Made by a program: the position numbers and the translations under genes. Source: Alphaproteobacteria bacterium (lineage in GTDB: Bacteria > Pseudomonadota > Alphaproteobacteria > UBA7887). Taken from it: 64,000 nucleotides of DNA. Below, piece after piece: positions 13,398 to 30,362 of this stretch. How positions within the stretch are numbered: the stretch's first letter is position 1; every line of letters starts with the position of its first letter. The stretch spans positions 736,001-800,000 of the forward strand of contig CBDCGL010000011.1 in NCBI GenBank assembly GCA_965216755.1. The letters are read 5' to 3'. The notes below the pieces were generated by a model. That model worked only from the letters and a program-made list of their open reading frames with translations, was not told the origin of the DNA and searched no databases.

Positions 13398-13452
13398 CGC
13401 GTTACCAGAGGCGCGGCCAAACTCGTCGCCGGCCACTTAGCGGTCACGCGTA

Positions 13453-14223
13453 TCAACTTAGTGGCCGACCGCCATCAACGGGCAATACGCAGCCCGTGCT
13501 GCTCTTCATCTGGGCGACCGCCGCGTACGCGACTCTGGCTACATCTTCGGGGCTGGCGAGTTTACCCAGCGGAGTTAGACGTTCCTGCGCGTTGCGCCAT
13601 TCGGGATCCAGCCCCTGAACGAATTCCGTATCGACCAGACCCGGCGCGATGGCGACCACGCGAATATCCGGCGCCAGCGCGCGCGCAAGTGATATCGTCA
13701 TGGTGTTGACTGCCGCTTTTGACGCGCAATAGGCAACATTGCTTCCCATCCCCGTGGTGCCGGCGATCGACGAAATGTTGATGATCGTGCCGCCGCCTGT
13801 CTCTGCGATCAGTGGTTTCAGTGCGCGAATGGCTGCAAACGTACCACGCCAATTGACGCGGAAAATCTCGTCGATCAGGTTGTCGTCCAGTGATTCGAGG
13901 TCGTCATGGGCGACAAATCGCGTCGTGCCGGCACAGTTGACCAATACGTCGAGCCGGCCTTCGTGCTGACGGAGATCTTCGCGCAGGTCTTGGAGGTTAG
14001 CCGAGTCTTCGACATCAATAGCAATATGTCGGTGTTCGTCGCCTGGTAGAGTCGTGACGAGTTCCGTGGCCGCATTGGCACGCCTGCGATATCCAACCAC
14101 CACGCGCATGCCGCCGGCAGCAAGCGCCCGACAAATGGCGCCGCCGATGCCGCCAGCGCCGCCGACGACCAATGCGACCTTATCCCGCATGTCCGCTGTA
14201 AGTTGAAAATCGCTGTTCGACAT
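13453..14223 (-). CDS. Short-chain dehydrogenase/reductase
   Basis: GGAGGIG, VNCAG, NISSIAG, YCASK. Confidence 0.93.
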   Translation of the reverse strand: MSNSDFQLTADMRDKVALVVGGAGGIGGAICRALAAGGMRVVVGYRRRANAATELVTTLPGDEHRHIAIDVEDSANLQDLREDLRQHEGRLDVLVNCAGTTRFVAHDDLESLDDNLIDEIFRVNWRGTFAAIRALKPLIAETGGGTIINISSIAGTTGMGSNVAYCASKAAVNTMTISLARALAPDIRVVAIAPGLVDTEFVQGLDPEWRNAQERLTPLGKLASPEDVARVAYAAVAQMKSSTGCVLPVDGGRPLS

Positions 14224-14409
14224 GTGGTTACCTTTCTCATGTCACGAAGTCATCAATCGCATTTGGCGTGGCAATTGCGATGGCGACTTTTGGATATTGG
14301 ACGCGTCGCGCTAAGCTTTGTTCGGCCAGTCGGGATTTTTGCAGGATACGGCCCCCATATGATCGTGTCGCGCGTCATTTCGGCTAAGTCAACTATCGGA
14401 GACAACGCG

Positions 14410-16074
14410 GTGTCGCAAGTTATCAAGCAGCCAAGGCAACCATCTTCGCTACAGGCGACGGCGGCACTGCTGGCGGCTGCTGCCGTGCTCAACACCACAT
14501 TGACCTTTCATAATATCTGGCCAACGCCGTGGATTCGTCCGTCGGCGGAGGTTTCCGTAGAGATCGTGTCTTTGGTGCTGGCGCTGGCGCTGGCGATGGC
14601 GATCGGGTTCCGGCCCGGCGCGACCACCCGTTGGCTGCTTACCATCGTCGTTATGTTCTTGGCTGCCGCGCGCTATGCCGAAGTTACAGCACCAGCCTTA
14701 TTTGGCCGGGCGATCAATGTTTATTGGGATCTGCCCCATGTGCCCAACGTTATACGGATGATGACCGAAGCGCTGCCGGCTGCGTTTTTGGTGGTGGGCC
14801 TTGGCTGTCTTGTTATTGGCTTGTTTTTGCTGGCGAGCGCAATCAACGCTGCCTTGCGTTGGCTTTCGATTGCGCTTGCCGTCGTGCCGTTGCGACGAAT
14901 GGCGATAATTGCGTCCGTTTGTTTGATCGCCTTGTTTCACCTTTCGTACGGCGGTTTCGGCATCGCGCCTTTGATCCGTTTCTCGATCCCGGTTACGCGC
15001 ACATATGCACAGCAAGCCGAATTCTTGATCGATGTCGCGCAAAGCGCTGATCAGCTCGAACGAACCTGGCCGACCGCCCCTGTTAATCCCGATATCGCGC
15101 GCCTCAGGCATACCGACCTGGATTTGCTCTTTTTTGAGTCTTATGGCGCGACGGCCTTAGACGAACCACGGCATGCCGGTTCGTTGTCGGCCGCATTTGC
15201 CGCCCTTGAAGTTGGCTTGAAGGGATCGCCTTGGCAGGTTGTCTCAGGTTATTTGCGTGCGCCGACATTTGGGGGCGCTTCGTGGCTGACGCACGCCAGT
15301 GTTTTGTCCGGTCTGCACATCACCGACCAGCAAGACTACCATATGCTTCTGACCACCGACCGCGCCACGCTCGTCCAGCATTTCGACGCGTTGGGGCACC
15401 GCACGGTGGCCGTCTTTCCAGGCTTTCGCAAAGCATGGCCGGAGGGCCAATACTACAGGTTCGACCAGCTCTACGATGCACAGATGCTTGACTATCCGGG
15501 CCCGGCGTTCGGTTGGTGGACCATCCCCGATCAGTTCAGCTTGGCCAAGGCACGCTCGCAAGAATTGCGTATCGCCGACACCGCACCCCGTTTCACGGTT
15601 TTCGCATCGATAACAAGTCACGCGCCATTCGCGCCAACTCCGCCCTACATCGACGACTGGTCGCAGATGACGCGCCCGCACCCCTATCGCGACGCCGCGG
15701 TCCCGGTTGACGTTGAAGAGCGGAACAGATGGACGGATATGAGCCCATCCTATGTGCGCACGATACGCTATAACTTGAATGTGTTAGCCGGCTGGTTAAA
15801 TCTGCGATCGGCCGACGATGCGATTGTGATCGCCATGGGTGACCATCAGCCGCCAGCCGCGGTCAGTGGCGAGAGTGCGCGGTGGGACGTGCCCGTGCAT
15901 GTTTTTGCTCAGTTCGATGGATTTCTAAGACCCTTCGTGGCCGCGGGTTTTACGCCGGGCCTTGTTCCACGAGGGCCGACCCTGGGCGGAGTCGAGCTGA
16001 TCCATGATGTGGTCGTCCATAGCTTTGGCAAATTGGGCACCGCGCAAGTTCGTGCGTACAACAAAAGCGATTAG
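14410..16074 (+). CDS. Membrane-anchored alkaline-phosphatase/sulfatase-superfamily protein (LtaS/OpgB/EptA-like phosphotransferase)
   Basis: About five N-terminal TM helices, then FFESYG (metal Glu), PTFGGASWLTH (Ser at the nucleophile position), TSHAPF, GDHQP. GTG start at 14410 after GGAG. Confidence 0.8.
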   Translation: MSQVIKQPRQPSSLQATAALLAAAAVLNTTLTFHNIWPTPWIRPSAEVSVEIVSLVLALALAMAIGFRPGATTRWLLTIVVMFLAAARYAEVTAPALFGRAINVYWDLPHVPNVIRMMTEALPAAFLVVGLGCLVIGLFLLASAINAALRWLSIALAVVPLRRMAIIASVCLIALFHLSYGGFGIAPLIRFSIPVTRTYAQQAEFLIDVAQSADQLERTWPTAPVNPDIARLRHTDLDLLFFESYGATALDEPRHAGSLSAAFAALEVGLKGSPWQVVSGYLRAPTFGGASWLTHASVLSGLHITDQQDYHMLLTTDRATLVQHFDALGHRTVAVFPGFRKAWPEGQYYRFDQLYDAQMLDYPGPAFGWWTIPDQFSLAKARSQELRIADTAPRFTVFASITSHAPFAPTPPYIDDWSQMTRPHPYRDAAVPVDVEERNRWTDMSPSYVRTIRYNLNVLAGWLNLRSADDAIVIAMGDHQPPAAVSGESARWDVPVHVFAQFDGFLRPFVAAGFTPGLVPRGPTLGGVELIHDVVVHSFGKLGTAQVRAYNKSD

Positions 16075-16077
16075 ACC

Positions 16078-18681
16078 TTGACCGCGCGCAATCTGCTCAT
16101 TGTGTCTTGGGTCGCGGCACTGACTGTCACGATTTGGTGGGCGGCTCATTCGCCCCACAGCCCACCATCTTGGGATGGCGGTCTGGTCGGTGGCCTGACC
16201 TATGCGCCATATCAACGGCACGACGACCCCGCACGCCGGGACGTGCCTTCGCGAGAGGATGTTTACCGCGACGTCGACCTCATTGCTGGCCGCGCCGGCG
16301 CAATACGGACCTACGCGATGGACGCCGCAGGCGCACGTGCCGTCGCCGCGGCAGCAGCGTACAATTTGCGCATCACTGCCGGGGCATGGCTGCGTGGGGC
16401 CCGTGACGCCGACCGCGCTGAGATCGAGCACTTGATCGCGGTGGCCAATCGTACGTCGGCGATCGAGCGTCTCTTGATCGGCAACGAAACGGTTTTGCAT
16501 GAGCGACTTGCGCCGCGAGAGCTCGCGGCGCTGATCGGCAATGTGCGCCAAACAGCGTCTGTGCCTGTCGGCACGGCGGAGCCATGGCACATATGGCTGG
16601 CCCATCCCGAGCTTGCCGCGGCAAGCGACTTCGTCGGTGTTCACATCCTGCCCTATTGGGAGGGTATTTCACGCACCGCCGCCATCGACTATGTCTTTCG
16701 GCGCCTCGCGGCGCTGCGGACGGCGTTTCCAGGCAAACCGATCGTTTTGGCAGAGGTTGGCTGGCCGAGTGACGGACCAAGAATGGGTGCGGCCGTTCCA
16801 TCGATCGCCAACCAGGCGTGGTTTAGCCGCGCTTTCGCTACCCGCGCGGAAAAGGAAGGTTTCAGCGACTATTTCTTCATCGAGGCATTTGACCAACCTT
16901 GGAAATCGGCGAGCGAGGGACAAGTCGGGCCGTATTGGGGCCTGTGGAACGCCAATCGGCAGCCCAAATTCCCCTGGGTCGGTTCGGTCACGCCGCGTCC
17001 TTCTTGGTGGTTGCCAACGATGGTGGTGGTTTTGGGGCTGCTTATCGTCGCCGGTGTCTATTTACGCGCCAGGCCGCAGATTTCGTCGACGGGCACAGCG
17101 GCAATGTCGTTTTTTGTTGTGGGCAGTTTTTCGCTTTACGCATTGACCGCGTCGGCGCCGCTTGTTCGGTACTACACAGGGGCTGAGATTGCGGTATGGA
17201 GTGTGCTTCTGGCCGCCCAATTGCTATTGATCGCGACGGCACTTGTAGAGGCCATTGAAGCGCTAGACGTAACGTGTACGGGGCCGCGACGACGCATTTT
17301 TGCGGCGAACCCTGGCGTTGTCGCCCGGCACCCAATGGTGTCGATCCATGTCCCATGCTGCGACGAGCCGCCGGACATGGTCGCGCAAACTTTGCGGGCG
17401 CTCGGGCGACTGGACTACCCCGCCTACGAGGTCTTGGTTATCGTCAACAATACGCCGGATCCGGAAAACAGACGGGCAATCTCCGATCTGTGCCGGCGCT
17501 TTGGTCCGAAGTTCCGCTTCATCTGTTTGCCGGATTGTCCTGGCTACAAGGCTGGCGCATTGAACGTCGCCCTGTCACGAAGTCACGCAGCGGCGGAAAT
17601 CGTGGCCGTCGTCGACAGCGACTATACGGTCGACCCGCATTGGCTGAGTGCGGCGGTTCCGCATTTCACCGCGCCCGACGTGGCCATTGTTCAGGCACCG
17701 CAGGACTATAGAGATCGCTTGCGAAGCGTCTTCAAGCGCCTTTGCTTTTGGGAATATGCAGCGTTTTTCAAAATCGGCATGGTGCAACGGAATGAGGCCA
17801 ACGCCATCATTCAACATGGCACAATGACTCTCATTCGGCGGCGGGCGCTGCAGGACGTCGGCGGCTGGAACGGATGGTGCATTACTGAAGATGCGGAACT
17901 GGGGCTGCGTCTTATGGCCGCCGGATGGCGTTCGGCCTTTATCACCCGGTCCCTGGGGCGCGGCCTGACACCCGATCGATTTGAGTCCTACAAGGCCCAG
18001 CGATTTCGCTGGGTCTACGGGGCCATGCAAGTCTTGAAGCATCACGCAGGGGCTCTGTTTCTGGGGCGCGAAACGCAACTTTCGGTCTCGCAGCGCTACC
18101 ATTTTGTCGCCGGTTGGTTGCCTTGGTTGGCCGATGGCTGCGGATTGCTGTTCACGGTTGGCGCCATCGCGTGGTCGGCCGCGCTGGCATTGTGGCCTGA
18201 CGCGATCATGGCGCCAGCCGCTGTGTTTCTGCTGCCCACCGTTGCGGTGTTCTTATTTCGGCAGGCGCGGGTCTTGTGGCTCTATCGCCGCACGATGGGC
18301 TGTCGTTTCGTGCAAGCAGCCGGAGCATCGATTGCCGGCTTGGGCCTGAGCCACACTGTCGGCAAGGGGGTGTTGTGGGGTCTATTCACACGACAGCGGC
18401 CGTTTCTTCGCACCCCCAAATGCGAAGACAGGCCCGGATTGCTCAATTTGGTGGCCGGCGTGGGCGAAGAAGCCGTCATTTTCCTGGCGCTGGCCGGGTC
18501 GATAGCGGCTGTCGCGCTGCAACAGGGATTGGATAACATAGATGTCCGATTGTGGCTGCTGGTACTGACGATACAGACGATTCCCTATGCTGCGGCGATC
18601 GCACTTGCGGTCCTTAGTGGTCGACCTATCCAGGTCGGCCAACAGATGGCTGCGCCTATTGTTGTCGAACCGGCTGAATAA
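16078..18681 (+). CDS. GH17 + GT2 fusion, NdvB-like (cyclic) beta-1,3-glucan synthase
   Basis: GH17: IRTY, IGNETV, HILPYWEG, AEVGWPS, IEAFDQPWK. TM segment. GT2: GYKAGALN, VDSDY, QAPQDYR, ITEDAELG, QRFRW. C-terminal TMs and FLRTPK. Confidence 0.92.
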   Translation: MTARNLLIVSWVAALTVTIWWAAHSPHSPPSWDGGLVGGLTYAPYQRHDDPARRDVPSREDVYRDVDLIAGRAGAIRTYAMDAAGARAVAAAAAYNLRITAGAWLRGARDADRAEIEHLIAVANRTSAIERLLIGNETVLHERLAPRELAALIGNVRQTASVPVGTAEPWHIWLAHPELAAASDFVGVHILPYWEGISRTAAIDYVFRRLAALRTAFPGKPIVLAEVGWPSDGPRMGAAVPSIANQAWFSRAFATRAEKEGFSDYFFIEAFDQPWKSASEGQVGPYWGLWNANRQPKFPWVGSVTPRPSWWLPTMVVVLGLLIVAGVYLRARPQISSTGTAAMSFFVVGSFSLYALTASAPLVRYYTGAEIAVWSVLLAAQLLLIATALVEAIEALDVTCTGPRRRIFAANPGVVARHPMVSIHVPCCDEPPDMVAQTLRALGRLDYPAYEVLVIVNNTPDPENRRAISDLCRRFGPKFRFICLPDCPGYKAGALNVALSRSHAAAEIVAVVDSDYTVDPHWLSAAVPHFTAPDVAIVQAPQDYRDRLRSVFKRLCFWEYAAFFKIGMVQRNEANAIIQHGTMTLIRRRALQDVGGWNGWCITEDAELGLRLMAAGWRSAFITRSLGRGLTPDRFESYKAQRFRWVYGAMQVLKHHAGALFLGRETQLSVSQRYHFVAGWLPWLADGCGLLFTVGAIAWSAALALWPDAIMAPAAVFLLPTVAVFLFRQARVLWLYRRTMGCRFVQAAGASIAGLGLSHTVGKGVLWGLFTRQRPFLRTPKCEDRPGLLNLVAGVGEEAVIFLALAGSIAAVALQQGLDNIDVRLWLLVLTIQTIPYAAAIALAVLSGRPIQVGQQMAAPIVVEPAE

Positions 18682-18685
18682 GCCG

Positions 18686-19492
18686 ATGGCCCACGTCACG
18701 CACGCATATTGGCAAGATCTGAAAACCACGGATTTCGATGCAATGGATCGGGAGACCACGGTCGTGCTGCTGCCGGTGTCCGCGATCGAACAGCACGGGC
18801 CGCATCTACCGCTCGGCACCGATTGGTTCATTAACGAGGCGATTTTGCAGCGCGCGATCGACCACATATCCGTGCCAGCGAGAGTATTGATTTTGCCAAG
18901 CCAGGCCGTCGGGCATAGCGGCGAACATATTGCCTTCGCGGGCACACTCAGCCATGAGGCTGAAACCCTGATCGCGGCGTGGACGGAAATCGGCGCCGAC
19001 GTGGCGCGTACCGGATTGCGGAAGTTGGTTATTTTCAACAGCCATGGTGGGCAATCACATGTCGTGGACATTGTTGCGGGGCGGCTGCGCCGCGCGCACG
19101 GCATGCTGGTTATTCGCACCAACAGCTTCCGGTTGGGCCCGCCGCCAGGATTGTTTGATGAATGGGAGGCCGCCCACGGCATCCATGGCGGGGCGATTGA
19201 AACATCGATGATGCTCCACTTGCGACCGGAGCTCGTTGAAATGGAAAAGGCGGCCCGCTTTGTCCCATACTCCGAGCACATGGAACGCCAGATGGCGATT
19301 GTACGCGCAGACCGCCCAGTCGGTTTCGGCTGGCAAAGTGAGGATTTGCATGCCGCGGGCGCCGCCGGTGACGCGGCCGCGGCCGACGCTGAAAAAGGCC
19401 GCATAGCCATCCACGACATGGCCAAGAAGCTCGCTTTGGTCATCGACGATGCAGCCCGATTTCCTTTGGCGAAGCTGGGCAATGCGCCGTGA
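18686..19492 (+). CDS. Creatininase family amidohydrolase (FAPy-nucleotide deformylase-like)
   Basis: LPVSAIEQHGPHLPLGTD, SGEH, FNSHGGQ, HGGAIETS. ATG 4 nt after the glucan synthase stop. Confidence 0.9.
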   Translation: MAHVTHAYWQDLKTTDFDAMDRETTVVLLPVSAIEQHGPHLPLGTDWFINEAILQRAIDHISVPARVLILPSQAVGHSGEHIAFAGTLSHEAETLIAAWTEIGADVARTGLRKLVIFNSHGGQSHVVDIVAGRLRRAHGMLVIRTNSFRLGPPPGLFDEWEAAHGIHGGAIETSMMLHLRPELVEMEKAARFVPYSEHMERQMAIVRADRPVGFGWQSEDLHAAGAAGDAAAADAEKGRIAIHDMAKKLALVIDDAARFPLAKLGNAP

Positions 19493-20334
19493 AAATTGGT
19501 ATCGACGACGCCTGGGCAATGTTGCTTGCCGCACGCCATGCGCATCACGGCGTCGAGAACGGAGCGCTGAGGGTTGCTGACGACGGCACGTGGCAATGCG
19601 ACGTTTCGGTGAGTGACGCGGCCGCCGAGCTGCTTGATCTATATGCGCCGGTCGCCGCGGCTGGTCCGGAAAGCCCGCTGATTGTCGGTCATCTGGGGCA
19701 AAGCCTTGATGGCCGCATCGCGACGCATAATGGCGATTCAGACTATGTGACTGGCGCGGACAACCTCGACCACTTGCACCGCATGCGCGCGTTGAGTGAC
19801 GCCGTGATTGTGGGCGCCGGGACCGTAAAGAGCGACAACCCACGGCTCACGACACGGCGAGTCGCCGGACCTTCGCCTCTGCGCGTCATTGTTGGCGACG
19901 TCCCGGTTGATTGTGGCGGCGACCGTGTTGCCCCGGCAATTTCATTTGTCTCGAACGCAGGACGCGCGGCGGACAACGGGATCGGTGAGATCATTGTCGT
20001 GCCACCGAACGGCAACGGCCTTGACCTGTCGGCCGTGGTCTCGATCTTGCGGGACCGAGGTGCCCATGTTCTGTTCGTCGAAGGGGGGGGGATTACGGTT
20101 TCCCGATTTCTGGAACTGGGTCTTATTGATCGTCTGCAGATCACCGTGGCGCCAATCATCATCGGATCCGGGCGCGATGGCATCAGGTTGCCGAAGATTG
20201 ATTGTTTGACGAACTGTATCAGGGCGCCAAGTCGCCGTTACATGATGGGCCAAGATGTCATGTTTGAATTGGACCTTGTGTCGCAAAGAAATCTGTATGG
20301 CCGACAAGGAGATGCGAGTCGCCCGCCACGATGA
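19489..20334 (+). CDS. RibD C-terminal-domain (pyrimidine reductase-like) protein
   Basis: GQSLDGRIAT, HRMRALSDAVIVGAGTVKSDNPRLTTR, LFVEGGG, APIIIGSG. No deaminase domain. GTGA overlap with the upstream gene. Confidence 0.9.
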   Translation: MKIGIDDAWAMLLAARHAHHGVENGALRVADDGTWQCDVSVSDAAAELLDLYAPVAAAGPESPLIVGHLGQSLDGRIATHNGDSDYVTGADNLDHLHRMRALSDAVIVGAGTVKSDNPRLTTRRVAGPSPLRVIVGDVPVDCGGDRVAPAISFVSNAGRAADNGIGEIIVVPPNGNGLDLSAVVSILRDRGAHVLFVEGGGITVSRFLELGLIDRLQITVAPIIIGSGRDGIRLPKIDCLTNCIRAPSRRYMMGQDVMFELDLVSQRNLYGRQGDASRPPR

Positions 20335-21085
20335 GTCTTCTGCGGCGGTTCGCCCAGGCCCGGATTTGTGCTGCGTTGCCAGGTGCCATTGAAGCGGCCG
20401 CGCCAGACCAGTCAGCCAACAATGCCTTTTGCATGGCGACGTCATCGGTGCCGAGCTGCCAGTCGCTGCAGGCACTGATCAGGTCATATCCATGCGCCTT
20501 CAATAGTTTTTGCGCCGTTTCGGCGGCTTGGGGACCCAACGCCGGGCCAAAGCCTTTGTCTGTCTTCTGGTGGCGATTGATCAGGCCGGCCACCATGTCG
20601 TCGTCGCGGTCGCTCGGCGCCCAGCGGATCAGGCCCTGATAGCTCAGTCGAAACAAGATCGCCGGCGTTGTGCTGACAATTGCGCTGATCGCATCGGTGA
20701 GCCACGATTCCGAAACCAAATCCAGGAACGCCGAGGCCGTGACCAAATCAAAGCGTTGTTCTGTCAACACCGGCAGACCTTGCACCATATCCGAGACTTG
20801 CGTGGTAACGGCGATGCTACCGCGACCGCCCGCCAAGGCCCTCAAGCGCGGATTAACGAGGTCGATCAGGGCCGGATCGTTGTCGATAAGATGCCAGGCT
20901 TGCCGTGAACTTAAGTGCGGCGCGATGGCGCGCAGGTTGGCGCCCGTGCCGGCAGCCAGGTCGAGGATCCGCAACGTTTCCTGTAGGCTCGACCAAGCGC
21001 GTAGCGGCTTGGTGATTTGAGCACCCAACGTGCTCCGATCGTAGGGCTCGCGCAGGTCAAGCCAAGCGCTTTCGAACATGGTCAT
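20258..21085 (-). CDS. Class I SAM-dependent methyltransferase
   Basis: WLDLREPYD N-terminus, ILDLAAGTGANLR motif I, DLVTASAFLDLVS. Confidence 0.85.
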   Translation of the reverse strand: MTMFESAWLDLREPYDRSTLGAQITKPLRAWSSLQETLRILDLAAGTGANLRAIAPHLSSRQAWHLIDNDPALIDLVNPRLRALAGGRGSIAVTTQVSDMVQGLPVLTEQRFDLVTASAFLDLVSESWLTDAISAIVSTTPAILFRLSYQGLIRWAPSDRDDDMVAGLINRHQKTDKGFGPALGPQAAETAQKLLKAHGYDLISACSDWQLGTDDVAMQKALLADWSGAAASMAPGNAAQIRAWANRRRRLIVAGDSHLLVGHTDFFATQGPIQT

Positions 21086-22143
21086 GGGCGCAAAAAGCGT
21101 TCAATTTCGGCGCCAAAATCGCGGGCGGCCTCGGCCCAATTCGGCAGGCTTGCGCCGGCAACCCGTGCGCGGTCAGCCATCTGCTGGCGAAGCGGCGGCG
21201 AATTGATCAGCCGCCCAAGTGCGTGCGCCAAACCGCCAACATCGCCGGGCGGCACCAATAGGCCCGCCTCGGTTGGCACCGTTTCAGGTATTGCACCGGC
21301 GTTCGTGCTAACGATTGGCAGTCCGCGCGCCAAGGCTTCCGCGAGCACCATGCCGTAGCCCTCGTAATACGATGCGAGCACGAACATATCGGACGCACGG
21401 AAATACTCTTCGAGCGTCGGTCCGACCGCTTCGCCAACCAATGAGACCTTTTCTTGCAATCCCGCGTCGTCGATTGCCGTGCGGACAGCCTTGGTCGTGC
21501 TTGGGTCTAGATCCTGCGGTCCGACACACACCAACCGCCACTGCCTATACGCGGCGCCCGAAAGACACGACAAGGCACGAATCAATACCACGTGCCCCTT
21601 GCGTGGCGTCAACGACGCAACGCACAGCAGGGTGACGATGCCATCCGTCGATCCTGTCACTTGTGTTGCCGGGTCGGTGCCCGGCCGAACCACACTTATC
21701 TTCTCGATTTCAACATCATAGGAGGCCAAGGCGTCGGCGGTCGTCTTGCTGGGCACGATCACATGTGTGGCCGCCGCAAGCGCATGCCGCTCACTCGCGA
21801 AAAACCCTGCTTTTTCGCGTGCGTCGAGACCTGTTTCCGCCGCGAGTGGGTGGTGTACCAACGCGACAAGACACAGGCGCTGGGCCTGAGCGTACGCAAG
21901 TTCGGATAGTACGCCCAACGCCAGGCCGTCGACCACGACCGTGGCGCCGTCGGGAATGTCGCCAAATACTGCCTCGGCATGTGCAACAGCCGCGCGGCTG
22001 GGTTGGGGAAAACCGTTCTTTAGTGCCAGCGCGACAACGTCCCAACTCTCGTGGCGCAGTCCGGCGATGATGCGACGGTCATAAATGAAGCCGCCGGTCT
22101 TGGTCTCCGGATCGCCCGGCACGATGAAATAAAGCCGCGCCAT
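21082..22143 (-). CDS. Glycosyltransferase family 4
   Basis: TGGFIYDRR, VASLTPRKGH, YEGYGMVLAEALARGLP (E-x7-E). Confidence 0.93.
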   Translation of the reverse strand: MARLYFIVPGDPETKTGGFIYDRRIIAGLRHESWDVVALALKNGFPQPSRAAVAHAEAVFGDIPDGATVVVDGLALGVLSELAYAQAQRLCLVALVHHPLAAETGLDAREKAGFFASERHALAAATHVIVPSKTTADALASYDVEIEKISVVRPGTDPATQVTGSTDGIVTLLCVASLTPRKGHVVLIRALSCLSGAAYRQWRLVCVGPQDLDPSTTKAVRTAIDDAGLQEKVSLVGEAVGPTLEEYFRASDMFVLASYYEGYGMVLAEALARGLPIVSTNAGAIPETVPTEAGLLVPPGDVGGLAHALGRLINSPPLRQQMADRARVAGASLPNWAEAARDFGAEIERFLRP

Positions 22144-22554
22144 TCAACCCTTCGCCGGCAGGGCGCCTTCATAGGCCGCCCACGCAATGTGTGATTCATG
22201 CAAAGTCACCCGCAGGCCGGTCAGGCCGGTCGCGCTGGCGCCCAGTTCGCCGGCCGAGACCCGTGCGCCCAATTGTTCGAAAATCCAGCCCGCCAGCCAT
22301 TCGGTGGTTGTGTTTTGCCCGGTAAACGCAGGTAGAGTGTCCAAGTTCTGATAGTTGACCTCTGCCAGAACGGCGCCGAGCGTTTGACTGGCCAAGCCAA
22401 TGTCGACGACCAGACCGTCATCGTCCAAGGCCGGTCGTCGGAAGGTGGCGTCGACCACAAAGGTGGCGCCGTGTAGCTGTTGTGCCGGACCAAATACGGC
22501 GCCGCGAAAGCTATGCGCGATCATCAAATGGTCGCGGACGGTCAGGCTATACAT
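22144..22554 (-). CDS. 6-pyruvoyl-tetrahydropterin synthase/QueD (COG0720) homologue, PTPS-IV type
   Basis: [42 protein letters not shown]. Lacks the CxxxHGH motif of QueD. Confidence 0.88.
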
Positions 22555-22566
22555 GGTGGCGGCTCC

Positions 22567-23547
22567 TTAGCGATCGGGATAACGAACCCGGTGGCATATC
22601 GTGCCCGCGCCATCAACGGCAAGGTCGGCGATCGTTTTTGGAAGATCATGGAAGTTACTCTCTCCGGTGATCAGCACGTCCAAGACCGGATCCGCAAGAA
22701 GGGACAATGCCAGGCGAAGCCGCTGGCGGCGGTTCCAGCGGCCGCGGCGGTGCGGAGGAATGCGGCCCACTTGTGACGAGATGATCCTAAGGCGCTCTGG
22801 ATGAAACCGTTCGCCCAGCGGTAGTGTCACGTGCCGGTCGCCATACCAACTCATTTCGATGATTGCCGCTTCCGGTGCCGCCAGGCCAAGTGCGTGCACC
22901 AACCCATCCGGGTGACCAGAACTGTGGAAGATTAAGTCCGCCTGATCCTTCGCCGCGTCAGGCCGCGCGAAGTCGACACCGAGTCGCCGAGTGACCGCGC
23001 GTTTGCTCGGGTCGACATCGATCAGTTGCACCGATACGCCCGGAATCTGTGCCGCCAAGTACGCTGTTAGGCAGCCGACGCAACCGGCGCCGATCACGAC
23101 CACGCGATCACCAAGACATGGCGGTGCATCCCAAAGCGCGGTCACCGCCGTTTCCATATTGGCCGCCAGTACGGCCCGTGATGCCGGGACGTCGCTTGGC
23201 AGCGGCACCGCGTCGACGCCGGGGACGACAAATCGGGTCTGGTGGGGGTACAGACAGAATACGGTCTGTCCGATCCTATCGCGCGGGCCCTGTTCGATGA
23301 TCCCGACATTCACATAGCCGTATTTGACGGGCGCCGGAAAAGAGCCGCTTTGGAACGGCGCGCGCATAGGCTCATACAGTGATTCAGGTACACGGCCCGA
23401 CCATACCAGGGTCTCGGTGCCGCGACTGATCGCGCCGAAAAGGGCGCGTACCCGTACATCTCCCGCGCTAGCAGACGACAGAGCCTCCGGGCGAATCTCA
23501 CCCCGGCGTGGCGCGGCGACCCAAAATGCTTCCGCCTTTTCTGTCAT
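22567..23547 (-). CDS. MDR (zinc-type alcohol dehydrogenase-like) oxidoreductase
   Basis: ISRGTE, KYGY (in place of GHE), YPHQ, ANMETA, VIGAGCVG Rossmann motif, ISSQVG. Confidence 0.88.
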   Translation of the reverse strand: MTEKAEAFWVAAPRRGEIRPEALSSASAGDVRVRALFGAISRGTETLVWSGRVPESLYEPMRAPFQSGSFPAPVKYGYVNVGIIEQGPRDRIGQTVFCLYPHQTRFVVPGVDAVPLPSDVPASRAVLAANMETAVTALWDAPPCLGDRVVVIGAGCVGCLTAYLAAQIPGVSVQLIDVDPSKRAVTRRLGVDFARPDAAKDQADLIFHSSGHPDGLVHALGLAAPEAAIIEMSWYGDRHVTLPLGERFHPERLRIISSQVGRIPPHRRGRWNRRQRLRLALSLLADPVLDVLITGESNFHDLPKTIADLAVDGAGTICHRVRYPDR

Positions 23548-23598
23548 ATCAAAGCGCCGATTTTGTGCATTTCCAGGATGTGACCGTATGATGGCAAA

Positions 23599-24390
23599 AT
23601 GGTTTCACGCATTCGCGCCATTGCTGTCAATGTTCCATCTGTTCAGCGCGGGCACGCCACCTCGAAGCGCTTGTCGCGCGTTTCTGGGCAGGTTCTGCCG
23701 CTCGCCATGGCGAACTCCGTGACTGTGGCCGGGTTGGGGCTATTTCTGTTTGGGGTGCCCGCTGACGTGATCGCCCGTGGCCTGCTTGCGGCGGGCGCTA
23801 TTGCGATGGTCGTGGTATGGGCTTTTTGTGCCCGCTGCCAATTGGACCGGTTCGAGATTGCCAATCAGATTACGCTTGGGCGCGCCGTTTTGGCAGGCTT
23901 CTGTGTTGGGTTTGTGGGTCAACCTGACACGGCCGCGTACCACGGATGGTTGCTTTTTGGCACGGTCGTGTTGGCCGCTCTCCTCGACGGCGTCGACGGT
24001 TGGGTGGCGCGGCGCACGCGCAGCGAAAGTGCCTTCGGCGCGCGCTTCGATATGGAAATCGATGCCGCGTTTGTGCTGGTCCTCTCTATCCTCGTCTATC
24101 AACTTGACAAGGCTGGCGCGTGGGTCCTGCTATCCGGACTGCTTCGATACTTGTTCATCGCCGCCGGCTTTGTCGTGCCACGATTGCGCGCGACGTTGCC
24201 GCCCAGCATCCGCAGACGGGTGATCTGCGCAATTCAAGTGGCTGCCTTGGTGGTGTGTTTGGCGCCGGCCATGCCAAGCAAGGCCGGCTTATTTGCGGCC
24301 GCGGGCGCTCTCGTTTTGCTGACTTTATCTTTCGGCCGCGATGTGGCTTGGTTACTCCAGGCAGAACCAAATAGGGAGGTAACCAGATGA
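23599..24390 (+). CDS. CDP-alcohol phosphatidyltransferase family membrane protein
   Basis: ANQITLGR and signature DGVDGWVARR...FGARFDMEID; multiple TMs. Confidence 0.92.
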   Translation: MVSRIRAIAVNVPSVQRGHATSKRLSRVSGQVLPLAMANSVTVAGLGLFLFGVPADVIARGLLAAGAIAMVVVWAFCARCQLDRFEIANQITLGRAVLAGFCVGFVGQPDTAAYHGWLLFGTVVLAALLDGVDGWVARRTRSESAFGARFDMEIDAAFVLVLSILVYQLDKAGAWVLLSGLLRYLFIAAGFVVPRLRATLPPSIRRRVICAIQVAALVVCLAPAMPSKAGLFAAAGALVLLTLSFGRDVAWLLQAEPNREVTR

Positions 24391-24989
24391 ACATGTCCGG
24401 TTTGCGTGCGATCCGAACCGCAGTCGCAACTGGCGCCCTTGTGACGATGGCCAATATCGCTGTTGCGGCGCCGGCGAACTACACCATCGACGCTGAACAT
24501 TTCAGTTTTGGCTTCTTAGTGCGTCATATTGGGTTTGCCGACATTCTCGGTATGTTTCTCGAGATGCAGGGCTCGTATACGTTCGATGAAGAGACCATGG
24601 AACTGTCGGATGTGCGTGTCGTCGTCAAGACAGAAAGTGTATTTACAAATCACGAGGCGCGGGACGAACATTTGCGAAGCGCGGATTTCTTCAATAGCGG
24701 CGAATTTCCCGAGATGGTTTTTGTCGGTCAAGGCGCCGAAAAGATCGGCGATCGGTCGGGGAAAGTGGTTGGTGAACTGACTTTGCTTGGTGTCACGCAA
24801 CCGCTGACCTTAGATGTGACATGGAACAAGAGTGGCAATTATCCGTTTGGAGATGGCCACTTTGCCATGGGCATGTCGGCGCGTGGCAAGCTAAGTCGCA
24901 GTGACTTCGGAATGACTTACGCGGTGCAAGGCGATATTGTTGGCGATGAAGTTGAACTGATCTTAGAATTTGAAGGGATCCGCCAATAG
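24387..24989 (+). CDS. YceI family periplasmic polyisoprenoid/lipid-binding protein
   Basis: Signal peptide, YTIDAEH, RDEHLRSADFF, GELTLLGVT, RSDFGM. ATGA overlap with the upstream gene. Confidence 0.92.
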   Translation: MNMSGLRAIRTAVATGALVTMANIAVAAPANYTIDAEHFSFGFLVRHIGFADILGMFLEMQGSYTFDEETMELSDVRVVVKTESVFTNHEARDEHLRSADFFNSGEFPEMVFVGQGAEKIGDRSGKVVGELTLLGVTQPLTLDVTWNKSGNYPFGDGHFAMGMSARGKLSRSDFGMTYAVQGDIVGDEVELILEFEGIRQ

Positions 24990-25034
24990 TGCCTTTCAGA
25001 CCGTAAACCTGGGTATTAAGAGTCGACGCAGGCC

Positions 25035-25922
25035 ATGGATGCATTGGCGCAGTTTGCGCAACAAGTTGTCAGCGGAACTGCCATTGGATGCGTTTATGGC
25101 CTGGTCGCGCTCGGCTTCGTTCTGATCTATAAGGCGACCGAGGTCGTCAATTTCGCCCAAGGCGAATTGATGATGCTGGGTGCCTTTCTGGCTTTTACAT
25201 TCATCGTCATTTTCGGTCTGAATTTCTGGGTCGGCGCGCTGCTGGCAATCATCTTGTGCGCCGGCTTTGGCGGATTACTTGATCGAGTCGTCATGCGGCC
25301 GATGGTTGGCCAACCGGTATTCGCGATCGTCATGGTGACTATTGGCATCGGTTTTCTGATGCGCAGCGTCGCCAGTATGATTCCGGGGTGGGGAGTCGAC
25401 ACGCATCTGATCGAAACACCCTTTTACAACAAGGTCGTCAATTTTGGTGCGTTGGTGATCAGCCAAGACCACATGGCCGTGATCATCATGACCGCGGTTC
25501 TGTCGTTGGTTTTATTCGGGTTCTTCCGCTATACGCGCTTGGGCGTTGCCATGCAGGCATCGTCGCAAAACCAATTAGCTGCCTATTATATGGGTATACC
25601 TGTAAAATCGGTCTTTTCTATGATCTGGGCGATTAGCGCAGGCGTCGCAGCATTTGCCGGGCTTTTGCTGGCGCCAATCGCGTTTGTTCACGTGAACATG
25701 GGATTCATTGGCATCAAGGCGTTCCCTGCGGCTGTACTAGGGGGCTTCGGGAGCATTCCGGGTGCGCTGATTGGCGGTTTGATCATTGGGATTGTTGAGG
25801 CTTTGGCCGGATTCTACTTGCCCGAGGGATTCAAAGATGTTGCGGCGTACGTGGTTCTGCTTGCGGTTTTGGTAATTCGCCCCGAGGGATTGTTTGGCGA
25901 ATCGATGCGCAAGAAGGTTTGA
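25035..25922 (+). CDS. livH: Branched-chain amino acid-type ABC transporter permease
   Basis: YGLVALGFVLIY, VNFAQGE, AAVLGGFGSIPGA. Confidence 0.9.
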   Translation: MDALAQFAQQVVSGTAIGCVYGLVALGFVLIYKATEVVNFAQGELMMLGAFLAFTFIVIFGLNFWVGALLAIILCAGFGGLLDRVVMRPMVGQPVFAIVMVTIGIGFLMRSVASMIPGWGVDTHLIETPFYNKVVNFGALVISQDHMAVIIMTAVLSLVLFGFFRYTRLGVAMQASSQNQLAAYYMGIPVKSVFSMIWAISAGVAAFAGLLLAPIAFVHVNMGFIGIKAFPAAVLGGFGSIPGALIGGLIIGIVEALAGFYLPEGFKDVAAYVVLLAVLVIRPEGLFGESMRKKV

Positions 25923-25923
25923 C

Positions 25924-30342: not shown

Positions 30343-30362
30343 GACGTACGAGGGAGTAGGAG

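What the first reader, a model, noticed from the sequence alone, without database searches (positions are those of the whole stretch)
14410..24989. Candidate new envelope-modification system: PTPS-IV (GTP-derived) biosynthetic cluster wired to a beta-glucan synthase and an LtaS/OpgB-like transferase
Seen: ten contiguous genes in three tightly coupled units. (+) membrane sulfatase-fold protein - GH17/GT2 glucan synthase - creatininase - RibD-C, with gaps of 3 and 4 nt and a GTGA overlap. (-) MDR dehydrogenase - PTPS homologue - GT4 - methyltransferase. (+) CDP-alcohol phosphotransferase - YceI, with an ATGA overlap. Known (from recall): COG0720 PTPS-IV genes (e.g. Streptomyces SCO6650) cluster with creatininase-type FAPy deformylase, RibD-like, GT, dehydrogenase and CDP-alcohol phosphotransferase genes, and the end product is unknown to me. 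NdvB-type GH17-GT2 enzymes make periplasmic cyclic beta-1,3-glucans, and LtaS/OpgB/EptA enzymes move phospho-head groups from lipids to glycans. Inference: the cytoplasmic enzymes build a GTP-derived, glycosylated and methylated alcohol, the CDP-alcohol transferase loads it on a lipid, and the sulfatase-fold enzyme transfers it to the glucan. The glucan synthase sitting inside the operon would identify the pathway's acceptor.
Basis: partly seen in the sequence, partly recalled or inferred. Interest (0 to 1): 0.85.

Follow-up and report, generated by a model that had tools for sequence, protein, structure and literature searches.

The report
PTPS-IV cluster tied to periplasmic glucans
Ten neighbouring genes join an unexplained GTP-derived biosynthetic pathway to a lipid-transfer enzyme pair and a periplasmic beta-glucan synthase, which points to a decoration of the bacterial envelope that has not been described.

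Summary
All ten genes, their domains and their tight junctions are as described.

The PTPS is an orthologue of SCO6650 and carries the FGPAQ signature of PTPS-IV.

All ten genes recur in 6 loci of the same family, but in a different order. The sulfatase-fold/GH17-GT2 pair moved as a unit.

Outside that family the GH17-GT2 gene is never near the cluster. OpgH/OpgG, an unrelated periplasmic glucan synthase system, takes its place:
- 23 of 48 non-actinobacterial loci hold a glucan synthesis gene within 10 kb.
- 20 of 22 PTPS-IV genomes have OpgH, against 68 of 379 without PTPS-IV.

The sulfatase-fold protein has the MCR-1/LtaS fold. It is found in exactly the 9 of 41 relatives that hold PTPS-IV.

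The CDP-alcohol phosphotransferase occurs naturally fused to the sulfatase-fold domain, YceI, FkbM, GTP cyclohydrolase II or a flippase-like domain.

Best reading: a GTP-derived, glycosylated and methylated head group is put on a lipid and then moved onto periplasmic glucan. The chemistry and the acceptor are inferred, not shown. I found no report of this link in print. It is a new variant of glucan substitution and of high interest.

The parts
14359..16074 (+). Polytopic membrane protein with a C-terminal alkaline-phosphatase-superfamily (sulfatase-fold) domain. It is the proposed phospho-head-group transferase. The start is either ATG 14359 (database model, 571 aa) or GTG 14410 (554 aa, GGAGA 8 nt upstream).
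   Evidence: PF00884 22.7 bits, below cut-off. No NCBIfam hit. AlphaFold model has pLDDT 82, with N-terminal helices followed by an alpha/beta domain. Foldseek top hits are full-length MCR-1 (E 7e-9), LtaP/LtaS, EptC and GacH. E243, S291, H295 and H404 are invariant, and T286, D478 and H479 nearly so, in 13 homologues. Found in the same 9 of 41 relatives as PTPS-IV.
16078..18681 (+). NdvB-type bifunctional glucan synthase: an N-terminal GH17 beta-1,3-glucanosyltransferase domain and a C-terminal processive GT2 (867 aa, TTG start, 3 nt after the previous stop).
   Evidence: GT2 Pfam families up to 112 bits, GH17 24 bits. PDB matches: residues 55-285 to the GH17 glucanosyltransferase 4wtp (E 8.8e-22) and residues 403-693 to BcsA (E 4e-25). 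Adjacent to the sulfatase-fold gene in 6 related loci.
18686..19492 (+). Creatininase-family amidohydrolase (ATG 4 nt after the synthase stop).
   Evidence: PF02633 228 bits. Below every NCBIfam equivalog cut-off. Beside the core in 67 of 107 loci.
19489..20334 (+). RibD C-terminal-type pyrimidine reductase with no deaminase domain (GTGA overlap with the creatininase gene).
   Evidence: PF01872 111 bits. TIGR00227 and the archaeal reductase TIGR01508 match below cut-off. Beside the core in 49 of 107 loci with this query.
20258..21085 (-). Class I SAM-dependent methyltransferase, the last gene of the minus-strand operon.
   Evidence: Methyltransf_25 32 bits. Present in 101 of 107 loci.
21082..22143 (-). 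GT4 (retaining) glycosyltransferase.
   Evidence: Glycos_transf_1 107 bits. Nearest solved relatives are sucrose-phosphate synthase 6kih, MshA, PimB' and BshA, which are glycosyltransferases of small polyol or acid acceptors. Present in 107 of 107 loci.
22144..22554 (-). PTPS-IV (COG0720 subfamily), an orthologue of SCO6650.
   Evidence: PF01242 79 bits. The FGPAQ motif is in the translation and is named as the PTPS-IV signature in PMC5445326. 3d7j 'Uncharacterized protein SCO6650' matches at E 1.8e-54.
22567..23547 (-). Medium-chain dehydrogenase/reductase, the first gene of the minus-strand operon.
   Evidence: Weak ADH_zinc_N and Rossmann hits. The only solved relative at E<=1e-5 is galactitol-1-phosphate 5-dehydrogenase 4a2c. 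Present in 107 of 107 loci.
23599..24390 (+). CDP-alcohol phosphotransferase, divergent from the MDR gene across 51 nt.
   Evidence: PF01066 63.8 bits. The stretch DGVDGWVARRTRSESAFGARFDMEID is seen. Present in 89 of 107 loci. Natural fusions to the sulfatase-fold domain, YceI, FkbM, GCH-II and LPG_synthase_TM.
24387..24989 (+). Periplasmic YceI-family (lipid/isoprenoid-binding barrel) protein, ATGA-coupled to the CDP-alcohol phosphotransferase gene.
   Evidence: PF04264 137 bits. An N-terminal signal-peptide-like stretch is in the translation. Fused to the CDP-alcohol transferase in 8 of 105 long relatives (one re-scanned).

Best explanation
The ten genes form one envelope-modification unit.

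Cytoplasmic steps (inferred):
- A GTP cyclohydrolase II encoded elsewhere in this genome opens GTP to a diaminopyrimidinone ribosyl phosphate.
- The RibD_C-type reductase, the creatininase-fold hydrolase, the MDR (polyol-phosphate-type) dehydrogenase and PTPS-IV remodel it into a pterin- or pyrimidine-type alcohol.
- The GT4 enzyme glycosylates it and the methyltransferase methylates it.

Membrane steps (inferred from family chemistry, co-occurrence and fusions):
- The CDP-alcohol phosphotransferase joins this alcohol through a phosphodiester to a lipid. CDP-diacylglycerol is the usual donor of the family.
- On the periplasmic face, the polytopic sulfatase-fold enzyme, which has the fold of MCR-1/EptC/LtaS/GacH, moves the phospho-head group to an acceptor. 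The periplasmic YceI barrel may hold the lipid tail.

Acceptor (inferred from gene linkage): the periplasmic beta-glucan made by the adjacent NdvB-type GH17-GT2 synthase.

What is shown here: the gene content, the domain and fold assignments, conservation of the unit through a rearrangement, phyletic co-occurrence, repeated adjacency to two unrelated periplasmic glucan synthase systems, and natural gene fusions.

My odds: about 0.85 that the PTPS-IV pathway is functionally coupled to periplasmic glucan, and about 0.55 for the full lipid-donor-to-glucan mechanism in this organism.
For: Unit:
- All ten genes recur together in 6 loci of the same family, in the order creat-RibDC | MT-GT4-PTPS-MDR | CDPOH-YceI-sulf-NdvB. 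The sulf-NdvB pair has moved as a block in the window.
- Within the family (22 genomes besides the window's), PTPS-IV, the sulfatase-fold gene and the GH17-GT2 gene are each found in the same 7.

Glucan link:
- Among 48 non-actinobacterial loci, 23 hold a glucan synthesis gene within 10 kb: the NdvB type in 6, OpgH and/or OpgG in 17.
- All 4 neighbour GT2s tested pass the NCBIfam MdoH cut-off.
- In a 401-genome phylum sample, OpgH is found in 20 of 22 PTPS-IV genomes against 68 of 379 others.
- The two exceptions are the window's genome, which has the NdvB type, and G417.
- 12 of those 20 have an opgH within 10 kb of PTPS-IV. In 5 of these it is a second, divergent copy.
- The four genomes with the NdvB type in the cluster that were tested have no OpgH. 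G031 has the cluster, no NdvB type, and OpgH.

Sulfatase-fold gene and glucan:
- It lies within 2 kb of opgH or opgG in G302, G167, G269 and G119. Its PTPS-IV-less relatives do the same in G369 and G384.

Lipid module:
- Sulfatase-fold homologues occur in 15 of 401 genomes, 10 of them PTPS-IV-positive.
- In the 8 sampled PTPS-IV genomes whose locus holds the CDP-alcohol transferase, a sulfatase-fold homologue is found in all 8.
- 4 of 4 sulf-negative genomes tested lack a CDP-alcohol transferase orthologue. In G064 the orthologue sits directly after opgH.
- Fusions among 105 long relatives of the CDP-alcohol transferase: 28 with the sulfatase domain, 8 with YceI, 3 with FkbM, 1 with GCH-II, 1 with LPG_synthase_TM (examples re-scanned). 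The transferase part is 43-45% identical to the window's.

Fold: MCR-1, LtaP/LtaS, EptC and GacH are the top matches.

GTP origin: GCH-II is beside the core in 71 of 107 loci, and PTPS-IV is an orthologue of SCO6650.
Against: - No chemistry, lipid or glucan was measured.
- 12 of 22 PTPS-IV genomes in the phylum sample lack the sulfatase-fold gene, and 4 of 4 of those tested lack the CDP-alcohol transferase. Yet 9 of the 12 keep opgH beside the core. The glucan link therefore does not require the lipid module.
- 56 of 59 actinobacterial loci have the CDP-alcohol transferase but no glucan gene (0 of 59), and only 2 have the sulfatase-fold gene. There the lipid may be the end product.
- The GH17-GT2 gene is near the cluster only in one family: 0 of 99 loci outside it.
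- The sulfatase-fold family shows no sequence-level relation to E. coli OpgB (hhalign probability 6%) or to any solved chain.
- GCH-II is not in the window.
- Related genomes are not independent, so the enrichment figures overstate the case.
- No RNA data were available to test co-transcription.
Confidence: 0.55

Rival explanations
1. The end product is a new membrane phospholipid, a GTP-derived glycosylated head group on diacylglycerol phosphate, that stays in the envelope membranes. The sulfatase-fold enzyme moves the head group to some other acceptor such as lipid A, a lipoprotein or peptidoglycan. The glucan genes are neighbours only because both serve envelope adaptation.
For: 56 of 59 actinobacterial loci have the CDP-alcohol transferase and 57 have a flippase-like LPG_synthase_TM gene, with no glucan gene and almost no sulfatase-fold gene. 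The nearest folds include the lipid A phosphoethanolamine transferases MCR-1 and EptC. YceI-family proteins are lipid binders (family knowledge).
Against: The sulfatase-fold gene itself sits within 2 kb of opgH or opgG in six genomes, two of which have no PTPS-IV, and beside the NdvB-type gene in the window's family. In G064 the CDP-alcohol transferase follows opgH. OpgH is found in 20 of 22 PTPS-IV genomes against 68 of 379 others.
Confidence: 0.2
2. The GT4 product, a glucoside of the GTP-derived compound, is the primer or aglycone from which OpgH or the NdvB-type synthase grows and exports the glucan. The heterocycle would then sit at the chain origin. The CDP-alcohol transferase/sulfatase-fold pair is a separate optional module that adds an ordinary phospho-substituent.
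For: 9 PTPS-IV genomes keep opgH directly beside the core while lacking the sulfatase-fold gene, and the 2 of these 9 that were tested (G112, G324) lack the CDP-alcohol transferase. In 5 of the 9 this opgH is a dedicated second copy. From recall, not from any call: the E. coli OpgH system needs a beta-glucoside primer in vitro.
Against: One natural fusion joins GCH-II to the CDP-alcohol transferase and three join FkbM to it. This ties the lipid step to the GTP pathway rather than to ordinary phospholipids. The CDP-alcohol transferase orthologue was found only in PTPS-IV genomes among those tested. A cyclic beta-1,3-glucan has no free chain origin (family knowledge).
Confidence: 0.12
3. The pathway makes a soluble cofactor or pigment, either F420-related as stated in PMC5041015 as unpublished work, or a pterin glycoside. 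The membrane and glucan genes are bystanders.
For: [quoted passage not shown] The window's genome and G007 do have CofD and a CofG/H-type gene. Pterin glycosides made by glycosyltransferases are known (abstracts listed).
Against: 3 of 5 PTPS-IV genomes tested (G060, G302, G111) have no CofD or CofH above cut-off. The F420 genes of the window's genome lie 3.4 Mb from the cluster. Fusions tie GCH-II and FkbM to a membrane CDP-alcohol transferase. The CDP-alcohol transferase is beside the core in 89 of 107 loci.
Confidence: 0.06
4. The CDP-alcohol transferase is a dedicated phosphatidylglycerol-phosphate-type synthase and the sulfatase-fold enzyme is an OpgB analogue. Together they put plain phosphoglycerol on the glucan, and the PTPS-IV product is chemically unrelated to that step.
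For: Some database sources name homologues 'phosphatidylglycerophosphate synthase' and 'phosphoglycerol transferase MdoB-like'. Sulfatase-fold relatives beside opgH exist in genomes without PTPS-IV (G369, G384).
Against: Best NCBIfam scores for PgsA are far below cut-off: 31.8 bits against 109. The phyletic pattern is identical to that of PTPS-IV in 41 relatives. Fusions exist with GCH-II and FkbM.
Confidence: 0.07

Closest known systems
OPG substitution by OpgB (phosphoglycerol transferase I) and OpgE (phosphoethanolamine transferase) in E. coli. CgmB of Sinorhizobium is a further example, from recall.
   Same: A polytopic inner-membrane enzyme with a periplasmic alkaline-phosphatase-superfamily domain moves a phospho-head group from a membrane phospholipid to periplasmic glucan. 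The abstract of PMC3818809 as listed says that OPG substituents derive from membrane phospholipids. The genes are linked to a periplasmic glucan synthase.
   Different: There is no sequence-level relation to OpgB. The donor would be a dedicated lipid made by its own CDP-alcohol transferase, with a head group from a GTP-derived pathway of about seven enzymes. The two transferases occur fused.
LtaS/LtaP, GacH, EptA/EptC/MCR-1 phospho-head-group transferases
   Same: They are the best structural matches and share the overall architecture: an N-terminal helical membrane domain followed by a catalytic domain.
   Different: Sequence identity is 9-16% in the listed structural alignments. There is no PDB match by sequence, and Pfam Sulfatase scores below its cut-off. 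The acceptor and donor are unknown.
SCO6650-type PTPS-IV gene cluster of Streptomyces (COG0720 subfamily, function unknown)
   Same: The PTPS orthologue matches at E 1.8e-54 and carries the FGPAQ signature. The same core of MDR-PTPS-GT4-methyltransferase with a CDP-alcohol transferase, creatininase and GCH-II is seen in 59 actinobacterial loci.
   Different: The streptomycete loci have no glucan synthase, and the sulfatase-fold gene is present in only 2 of 59. They have an LPG_synthase_TM gene instead (57 of 59). In the two Streptomyces loci aligned, the GCH-II has Met at the E. coli Tyr105 column. All 17 proteobacterial ones, the one from Gemmatimonadota and the window genome's own keep Tyr.
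NdvB-type GH17-GT2 cyclic beta-1,3-glucan synthases (Pseudomonas, Bradyrhizobium; recall)
   Same: The two-domain architecture was confirmed against solved GH17 and BcsA structures.
   Different: The product was not determined. Here the gene is translationally coupled to a sulfatase-fold transferase and embedded in a PTPS-IV cluster.
Pterin glycosides and pteridine glycosyltransferases of cyanobacteria and Chlorobium
   Same: A GTP-derived heterocycle is glycosylated by a dedicated glycosyltransferase (abstracts listed).
   Different: Those start from GTP cyclohydrolase I and canonical PTPS and give soluble products. Here the neighbours are GCH-II and RibD_C, and membrane enzymes follow. No sequence comparison with a pteridine glycosyltransferase was run.

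Membership tests
PTPS-IV (COG0720 subfamily) | PTPS fold (PF01242) | tested here: met
   79.1 bits against a cut-off of 22.4.
PTPS-IV (COG0720 subfamily) | FGPAQ signature in place of the CxxxHGH-type motifs | tested here: met
   [13 protein letters not shown] is in the translation. The signature is named in PMC5445326. F21, G22, P23, A24 and Q25 are invariant in 14 relatives.
PTPS-IV (COG0720 subfamily) | Orthology to SCO6650 | tested here: met
   3d7j matches at E 1.8e-54 over residues 1-132.
PTPS-IV (COG0720 subfamily) | Neighbourhood with GTP cyclohydrolase II and RibD_C (PMC5445326) | tested here: inconclusive
   RibD_C is in the window. GCH-II is not. The cluster-type copy lies at C11:3.29 Mb of the same genome.
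NdvB-type GH17-GT2 glucan synthase | N-terminal GH17 domain plus C-terminal processive GT2 in one chain | tested here: met
   4wtp matches at E 8.8e-22 (residues 55-285). BcsA 4hg6 matches at E 5e-25 (residues 403-693). Pfam GH17 alone is below its cut-off.
NdvB-type GH17-GT2 glucan synthase | Makes periplasmic (cyclic) beta-1,3-glucan | not testable with these tools
   This needs glucan chemistry.
LtaS/OpgB/EptA-type phospho-head-group transferases | Polytopic N-terminal membrane domain followed by an alkaline-phosphatase-superfamily domain | tested here: met
   The model has pLDDT 82, with long helices up to residue 219 and then an alpha/beta domain. Full-length MCR-1, LtaP/LtaS, EptC and GacH are the top matches.
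LtaS/OpgB/EptA-type phospho-head-group transferases | Conserved metal ligands and a Thr/Ser nucleophile | tested here: inconclusive
   E243, S291, H295 and H404 are invariant, and T286, D478 and H479 nearly invariant, in 13 sequences. I did not superpose them on a solved active site, and which residue is the nucleophile is open.
LtaS/OpgB/EptA-type phospho-head-group transferases | Sequence-profile membership (OpgB, Pfam Sulfatase) | tested here: not met
   hhalign against E. coli OpgB gives probability 6%. PF00884 scores 22.7 bits, under the cut-off of 25. There is no NCBIfam hit and no PDB sequence hit at E<=1.
CDP-alcohol phosphotransferases | PF01066 and the D-G-x2-A-R-x8-G-x3-D-x3-D motif (motif recalled) | tested here: met
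   63.8 bits against a cut-off of 22. DGWVARRTRSESAFGARFDMEID is visible. No equivalog (PgsA, Pss, PIP synthase) reaches its cut-off.
Periplasmic glucan substitution systems (OpgB/OpgE kind) | Genetic link of the transferase to a periplasmic glucan synthase | tested here: met
   The gene is adjacent to the NdvB-type gene in the window and in 6 related loci, and to opgH or opgG in 6 further genomes.
Periplasmic glucan substitution systems (OpgB/OpgE kind) | Head group found on the glucan and dependent on the transferase | not testable with these tools
   This needs mutants and LC-MS/NMR.
ArfB-type FAPy deformylase (creatininase fold) | Partner cyclohydrolase that stops at the formylated product (Met for Tyr at the E. 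coli RibA Tyr105 position; recalled from Spoonamore et al. 2006, not seen) | tested here: not met
   The column holds Tyr in all 17 proteobacterial cluster-linked GCH-II sequences, in the one from Gemmatimonadota, in one Micromonospora sequence, and in the window genome's cluster-type copy. It holds Met in 2 Streptomyces sequences and His in 2 other actinobacteria.
F420 biosynthesis | Co-occurrence with CofD and CofG/H | tested here: not met
   Present above cut-off in 2 of 5 PTPS-IV genomes (G000, G007) and not found in G060, G302 or G111.

The most novel reading that the evidence does not exclude
Periplasmic glucans of many Proteobacteria, and of at least one member of Gemmatimonadota, carry a covalently bound GTP-derived heterocycle of pterin, lumazine or diaminopyrimidine type, glycosylated and methylated. 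It would be delivered through a dedicated phospholipid by a new transferase family. This would make the glucan a scaffold for a redox-active or light-absorbing group in the periplasm. YceI or cytochrome b561, which replace each other in the clusters, would be its lipid-handling or electron-transfer partner. In Actinomycetota the same head group would remain as an undescribed membrane lipid.
Probability: 0.25. Interest if true: 0.9.

Novelty: new variant of a known kind. Interest (0 to 1): 0.8.

Why it matters
PTPS-IV/SCO6650 has had a solved structure since 2008 and has thousands of close relatives: 8000 hits at E<=1e-5 were scored, at about 70% identity across phyla. Yet it has no assigned product.

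The linkage found here gives a concrete place to look for that product. It points to the phospholipids and the periplasmic glucans, and it names the genes to delete.

It also defines a new family of sulfatase-fold membrane transferases tied to glucan synthases. If the reading is right, it adds a nitrogen-rich, GTP-derived substituent to the short list of known glucan decorations: phosphoglycerol, phosphoethanolamine, succinate, phosphocholine.

Periplasmic glucans matter for osmoadaptation, envelope signalling, symbiosis and virulence, so a new class of substituent would be of broad interest.

Tried and rejected
- Promoter and terminator scan of 13300-25300: no more sites than in shuffles. It says nothing on operon structure.
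- RNA evidence: no RNA holder was listed for the stretch.
- F420 link: rejected as a general explanation.
- FAPy-deformylase logic: not supported in proteobacteria.
- Sequence relation of the sulfatase-fold family to OpgB or to any solved chain: none.
- The upstream SDR gene (13453-14223, -) has only 25-29% matches in three related loci. The 529-aa ORF at 11393-12982 has no match there. Neither was counted as part of the unit.
- The Liv-type transporter genes downstream (25035-31544) gave weak matches in a few loci. I take these as generic.
I repeated it on 48 loci, with ORFs of at least 120 aa. Clusters 6, 7, 8, 10, 13, 19 and 23 of that run were treated as antisense or merged shadow ORFs and dropped.
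- In one search the row for the window genome's copy at 0.157 Mb was a partial stretch, aligned badly, and is ignored.
- Literature: searches found no paper that joins PTPS-IV, 6-pyruvoyl or GCH-II terms with periplasmic glucan or CDP-alcohol terms. The 2026 pterin review PMC13259868 has no occurrence of 'glucan', 'PTPS' or 'lipid'.
- Phillips et al. 2012 (PMC3262898) and the SCO6650 structure paper were not held. What I say of them, and of Spoonamore et al. 2006, is recalled.
Additional file 2 of PMC5445326 may list more PTPS-IV neighbours.
The pdb_via library was not on the machine.
- Complex prediction, the search of protein representatives, the protein-atlas search and the second structure job were not used.

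Full report
OBSERVATION

- Plus strand: a sulfatase-fold membrane protein (14359 or 14410 to 16074), a GH17/GT2 protein (16078-18681), a creatininase-family protein (18686-19492) and a RibD_C protein (19489-20334).
- Minus strand: an MDR-type dehydrogenase (23547-22567), PTPS (22554-22144), GT4 (22143-21082) and a methyltransferase (21085-20258).
- Plus strand again: a CDP-alcohol phosphotransferase (23599-24390) and YceI (24387-24989).

The junctions are as described: 3 nt and 4 nt gaps, and GTGA and ATGA overlaps from the ORF coordinates. On the minus strand the gaps are 12, 0 and -4 nt.

The flanks are unrelated general metabolism. Upstream lie an SDR, an ORF without a Pfam match, and Sel1, TPR/GT41, enoyl-CoA hydratase and GDPD genes. 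Downstream lie a Liv-type ABC transporter with an acyl-CoA synthetase, then a caspase-like peptidase and acyl-CoA enzymes. G+C falls from 0.61 inside the block to 0.54-0.56 just downstream.

IDENTITY OF THE PARTS

PTPS. The protein contains FGPAQ, which PMC5445326 names as the PTPS-IV signature (passage seen). Its only solved relative is 3d7j, 'Uncharacterized protein SCO6650', at E 1.8e-54. Relatives are about 70% identical across Actinomycetota and alpha-, beta- and gammaproteobacteria.

GH17/GT2. The protein matches a solved GH17 beta-1,3-glucanosyltransferase over residues 55-285 and BcsA over residues 403-693. This is the NdvB-type architecture.

Sulfatase-fold protein.
- It has no NCBIfam hit, a sub-threshold Pfam hit and no PDB hit by sequence.
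- An AlphaFold model built on 13 homologues has pLDDT 82.
- Foldseek puts full-length MCR-1, LtaP/LtaS, EptC and GacH on top, at E 7e-9 to 4e-6.
- E243, S291, H295 and H404 are invariant, and T286 and D478-H479 nearly so.
- A profile comparison with E. coli OpgB found nothing (probability 6%).
- I conclude that it works like the LtaS/OpgB/EptA class by fold and architecture, but is a family of its own.

Other proteins.
- The nearest solved relative of the MDR is galactitol-1-phosphate 5-dehydrogenase.
- The nearest solved relatives of the GT4 are sucrose-phosphate synthase, MshA, PimB' and BshA.
- The CDP-alcohol transferase reaches no equivalog cut-off.
- YceI has a signal-peptide-like N-terminus.

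CONSERVATION OF THE UNIT

The window belongs to an alphaproteobacterium. A genome of the 'same class' is the record titled as a Rhodospirillaceae MAG.

Among 41 relatives:
- PTPS-IV is found in 9.
- The sulfatase-fold gene is found in the same 9.
- The GH17-GT2 gene is found in 12. These are the 8 of the window's own family that have PTPS-IV, counting the window's genome, plus 4 genomes of other families without it.

In 6 of the 8 loci fetched from PTPS-IV-positive relatives, all ten genes are together, but in a different order. In those loci the order is creat-RibDC | MT-GT4-PTPS-MDR | CDPOH-YceI-sulf-NdvB. In the window, sulf-NdvB stands before creat-RibDC. The pair has therefore moved as a block and stayed with the cluster. 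Of the other two loci, one is a 7.5-kb contig that ends inside the sulfatase-fold gene, and one is G031.

WIDER NEIGHBOURHOODS

I examined 107 loci. They are 8 from relatives, 20 from a 401-genome sample of the phylum (22 of 401 have PTPS-IV) and 79 from the species collection after dropping one duplicate. Further overlap between the two collections is possible.

Genes beside the core, out of 107 loci:

| Gene | Loci |
|---|---|
| MDR-PTPS-GT4 core | 107 |
| Methyltransferase | 101 |
| CDP-alcohol transferase | 89 |
| LPG_synthase_TM (flippase-like) | 73 |
| GCH-II | 71 |
| Creatininase | 67 |
| RibD_C (with this query) | 49 |
| YceI | 22 |
| Sulfatase-fold gene | 21 |
| FkbM methyltransferase | 14 |
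| Cytochrome b561 | 8 |

YceI and cytochrome b561 never occur in the same locus (0 of 107).

The GH17-GT2 gene is near the cluster only in the window's family: 6 of 8 loci there, 0 of 99 elsewhere.

Clustering the neighbours turned up a GT2 of about 630-680 aa in 16 of 48 loci and MdoG in 8. All 4 of these GT2s that I tested pass the NCBIfam cut-off for MdoH/OpgH. In all, 23 of 48 non-actinobacterial loci hold a periplasmic glucan synthesis gene within 10 kb, against 0 of 59 actinobacterial loci.

The arrangements differ between lineages:
- In one set of gammaproteobacteria, creat-FkbM-OpgH-OpgG.
- In another family, OpgH-OpgG a few kb from RibD_C.
- In several alphaproteobacterial families, OpgH directly beside MDR.
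- In a Gemmatimonadota MAG, OpgG-OpgH-MDR-PTPS-GT4-MT.

GENOME-WIDE CO-OCCURRENCE

In the phylum sample OpgH is found in 88 of 401 genomes. That is 20 of the 22 with PTPS-IV and 68 of the 379 without. The two exceptions are the window's genome, which has the NdvB type, and G417, where I found neither type.

Of the 20, 12 have an opgH within 10 kb of PTPS-IV. In G184, G196, G260, G324 and G414 this is a second, lower-scoring copy beside a housekeeping one.

The window's genome and three relatives with the NdvB type in the cluster have no OpgH. G031 has the cluster, no NdvB type, and OpgH.

Related genomes are not independent, so these ratios overstate the statistical weight. Even so, the adjacency occurs in at least seven families and in several gene orders.

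THE LIPID MODULE

Sulfatase-fold homologues occur in 15 of 401 genomes. Ten are PTPS-IV-positive and five belong to one PTPS-IV-negative family.
- The gene lies within 2 kb of opgH or opgG in G302, G167, G269 and G119.
- Its relatives do the same in the PTPS-IV-negative genomes G369 and G384.

All 8 sampled PTPS-IV genomes whose locus holds the CDP-alcohol transferase have the sulfatase-fold gene somewhere in the genome.

Four of four sulf-negative PTPS-IV genomes tested have no orthologue of the transferase. In G064 the orthologue lies directly after opgH, 65 kb from the core.

The strongest evidence comes from natural fusions. Of the 120 best relatives of the sulfatase-fold protein, 6 are fusions with a CDP-alcohol transferase domain that is 43-45% identical to the window's. 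The 105 long relatives of the transferase break down as follows:

| Fusion partner (precomputed Pfam) | Count |
|---|---|
| Sulfatase domain | 28 |
| YceI | 8 |
| FkbM | 3 |
| GCH-II | 1 |
| LPG_synthase_TM | 1 |
| Class-V aminotransferase | 1 |
| PF01066 alone | 62 |
| No Pfam domain | 1 |

One example of each fusion type was confirmed by a fresh Pfam scan. Two of three 'PF01066 alone' proteins showed a sub-threshold sulfatase domain.

These fusions tie the transferase to the GTP-derived pathway on one side and to the periplasmic transferase and YceI on the other.

MECHANISM

The early chemistry is inferred. GCH-II gives 2,5-diamino-6-ribosylamino-pyrimidinone phosphate. A RibD_C enzyme without a deaminase domain would reduce the ribosyl chain while keeping the 2-amino group. 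A polyol-phosphate-type dehydrogenase and PTPS-IV would then remodel the chain, possibly closing a pterin ring. The GT4 and the methyltransferase finish the alcohol.

In my alignment:
- Met occurs only in the 2 Streptomyces sequences, and His in 2 other actinobacteria.
- All 17 proteobacterial sequences, the Gemmatimonadota one, one Micromonospora sequence and the window genome's own cluster-type copy keep Tyr.

The substrate of the hydrolase in this organism is therefore open.

The later steps follow family chemistry. A CDP-alcohol transferase makes a phosphodiester between a lipid phosphate and an alcohol. An LtaS/EptA-like enzyme then moves the phospho-head group to an extracytoplasmic acceptor. 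This is how phosphoglycerol and phosphoethanolamine reach periplasmic glucans in E. coli (abstract of PMC3818809 as listed).

WHAT SPEAKS AGAINST IT

- Twelve of the 22 PTPS-IV genomes lack the sulfatase-fold gene, and the four tested lack the transferase. Nine of the twelve still have opgH beside the core, often with FkbM and cytochrome b561. There must therefore be a second way in which the pathway meets glucan. One example would be the GT4 product acting as a primer of the synthase.
- In Actinomycetota the transferase and a flippase-like gene are present without any glucan gene. A lipid may be the end product there.
- The statement in PMC5041015 that PTPS-IV serves F420 synthesis (unpublished work, passage seen) does not fit as a general rule. 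CofD and CofH are found in 2 of 5 PTPS-IV genomes tested.

NOVELTY

PTPS-IV and its GCH-II/RibD_C neighbourhood are in print (PMC5445326, passages; PMC5041015).

I found no paper that links the family to periplasmic glucans, to a CDP-alcohol transferase or to a sulfatase-fold transferase (searches; review checked). Phillips et al. 2012 and the supplements could not be read.

The logic of lipid-derived glucan substituents is known. The head-group pathway, the transferase family and the fusions are not.

VERDICT

- Observation: confirmed.
- Interpretation: supported by comparative genomics, but unproven chemically.
- Classification: a new variant of a known kind.
- Interest: 0.8.

Noticed in passing
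107 related loci (L010-L117); window 24387-24989: YceI and cytochrome b561 genes replace each other beside the PTPS-IV core: 22 loci have YceI, 8 have cytochrome b561, and none has both. The b561 loci mostly lack the CDP-alcohol transferase and have opgH beside the MDR gene.
   Followed up: partly
L118 (G000:C11:2045000-2062000), outside the window: The genome's homologue of the cluster-linked FkbM methyltransferase (45% identical to that of L019) lies beside a 3-dehydroquinate-synthase-like gene, a xylose-isomerase-like TIM-barrel gene and a UbiA prenyltransferase gene. From recall, this set resembles 'ebo' clusters.
   Followed up: no
G000:C11:4137794-4142497, outside the window: CofD and a 916-aa CofG/H-type open frame (F420 biosynthesis) are present in this alphaproteobacterial genome and in relative G007, but not in three other PTPS-IV genomes.
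   Followed up: partly
window 20258-20334: The RibD_C gene (+) and the methyltransferase gene (-) converge and overlap by 77 nt at their 3' ends. In relative L010 the two ORFs do not overlap.
   Followed up: no
window 11393-12982 (-): A 529-aa ORF without any Pfam match at E<=0.001 and without a match in the eight related loci.
   Followed up: no
G369:C59 and G384:C27 (phylum sample): Sulfatase-fold relatives (32% identical) lie 1.7 kb from opgH in genomes of a family where PTPS-IV was not found. This may be an independent glucan transferase branch of the new family.
   Followed up: no
P0292 (885 aa, metagenomic): A single chain joins a CDP-alcohol transferase domain (325-479) and GTP cyclohydrolase II (697-861) after about 320 N-terminal residues with no Pfam match.
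   Followed up: no
window 25035-31544 (+): A Liv-type ABC transporter (two permeases, two ATPases, a binding protein) has an AMP-binding acyl-CoA synthetase gene inserted between them. G+C is lower than in the cluster.
   Followed up: no
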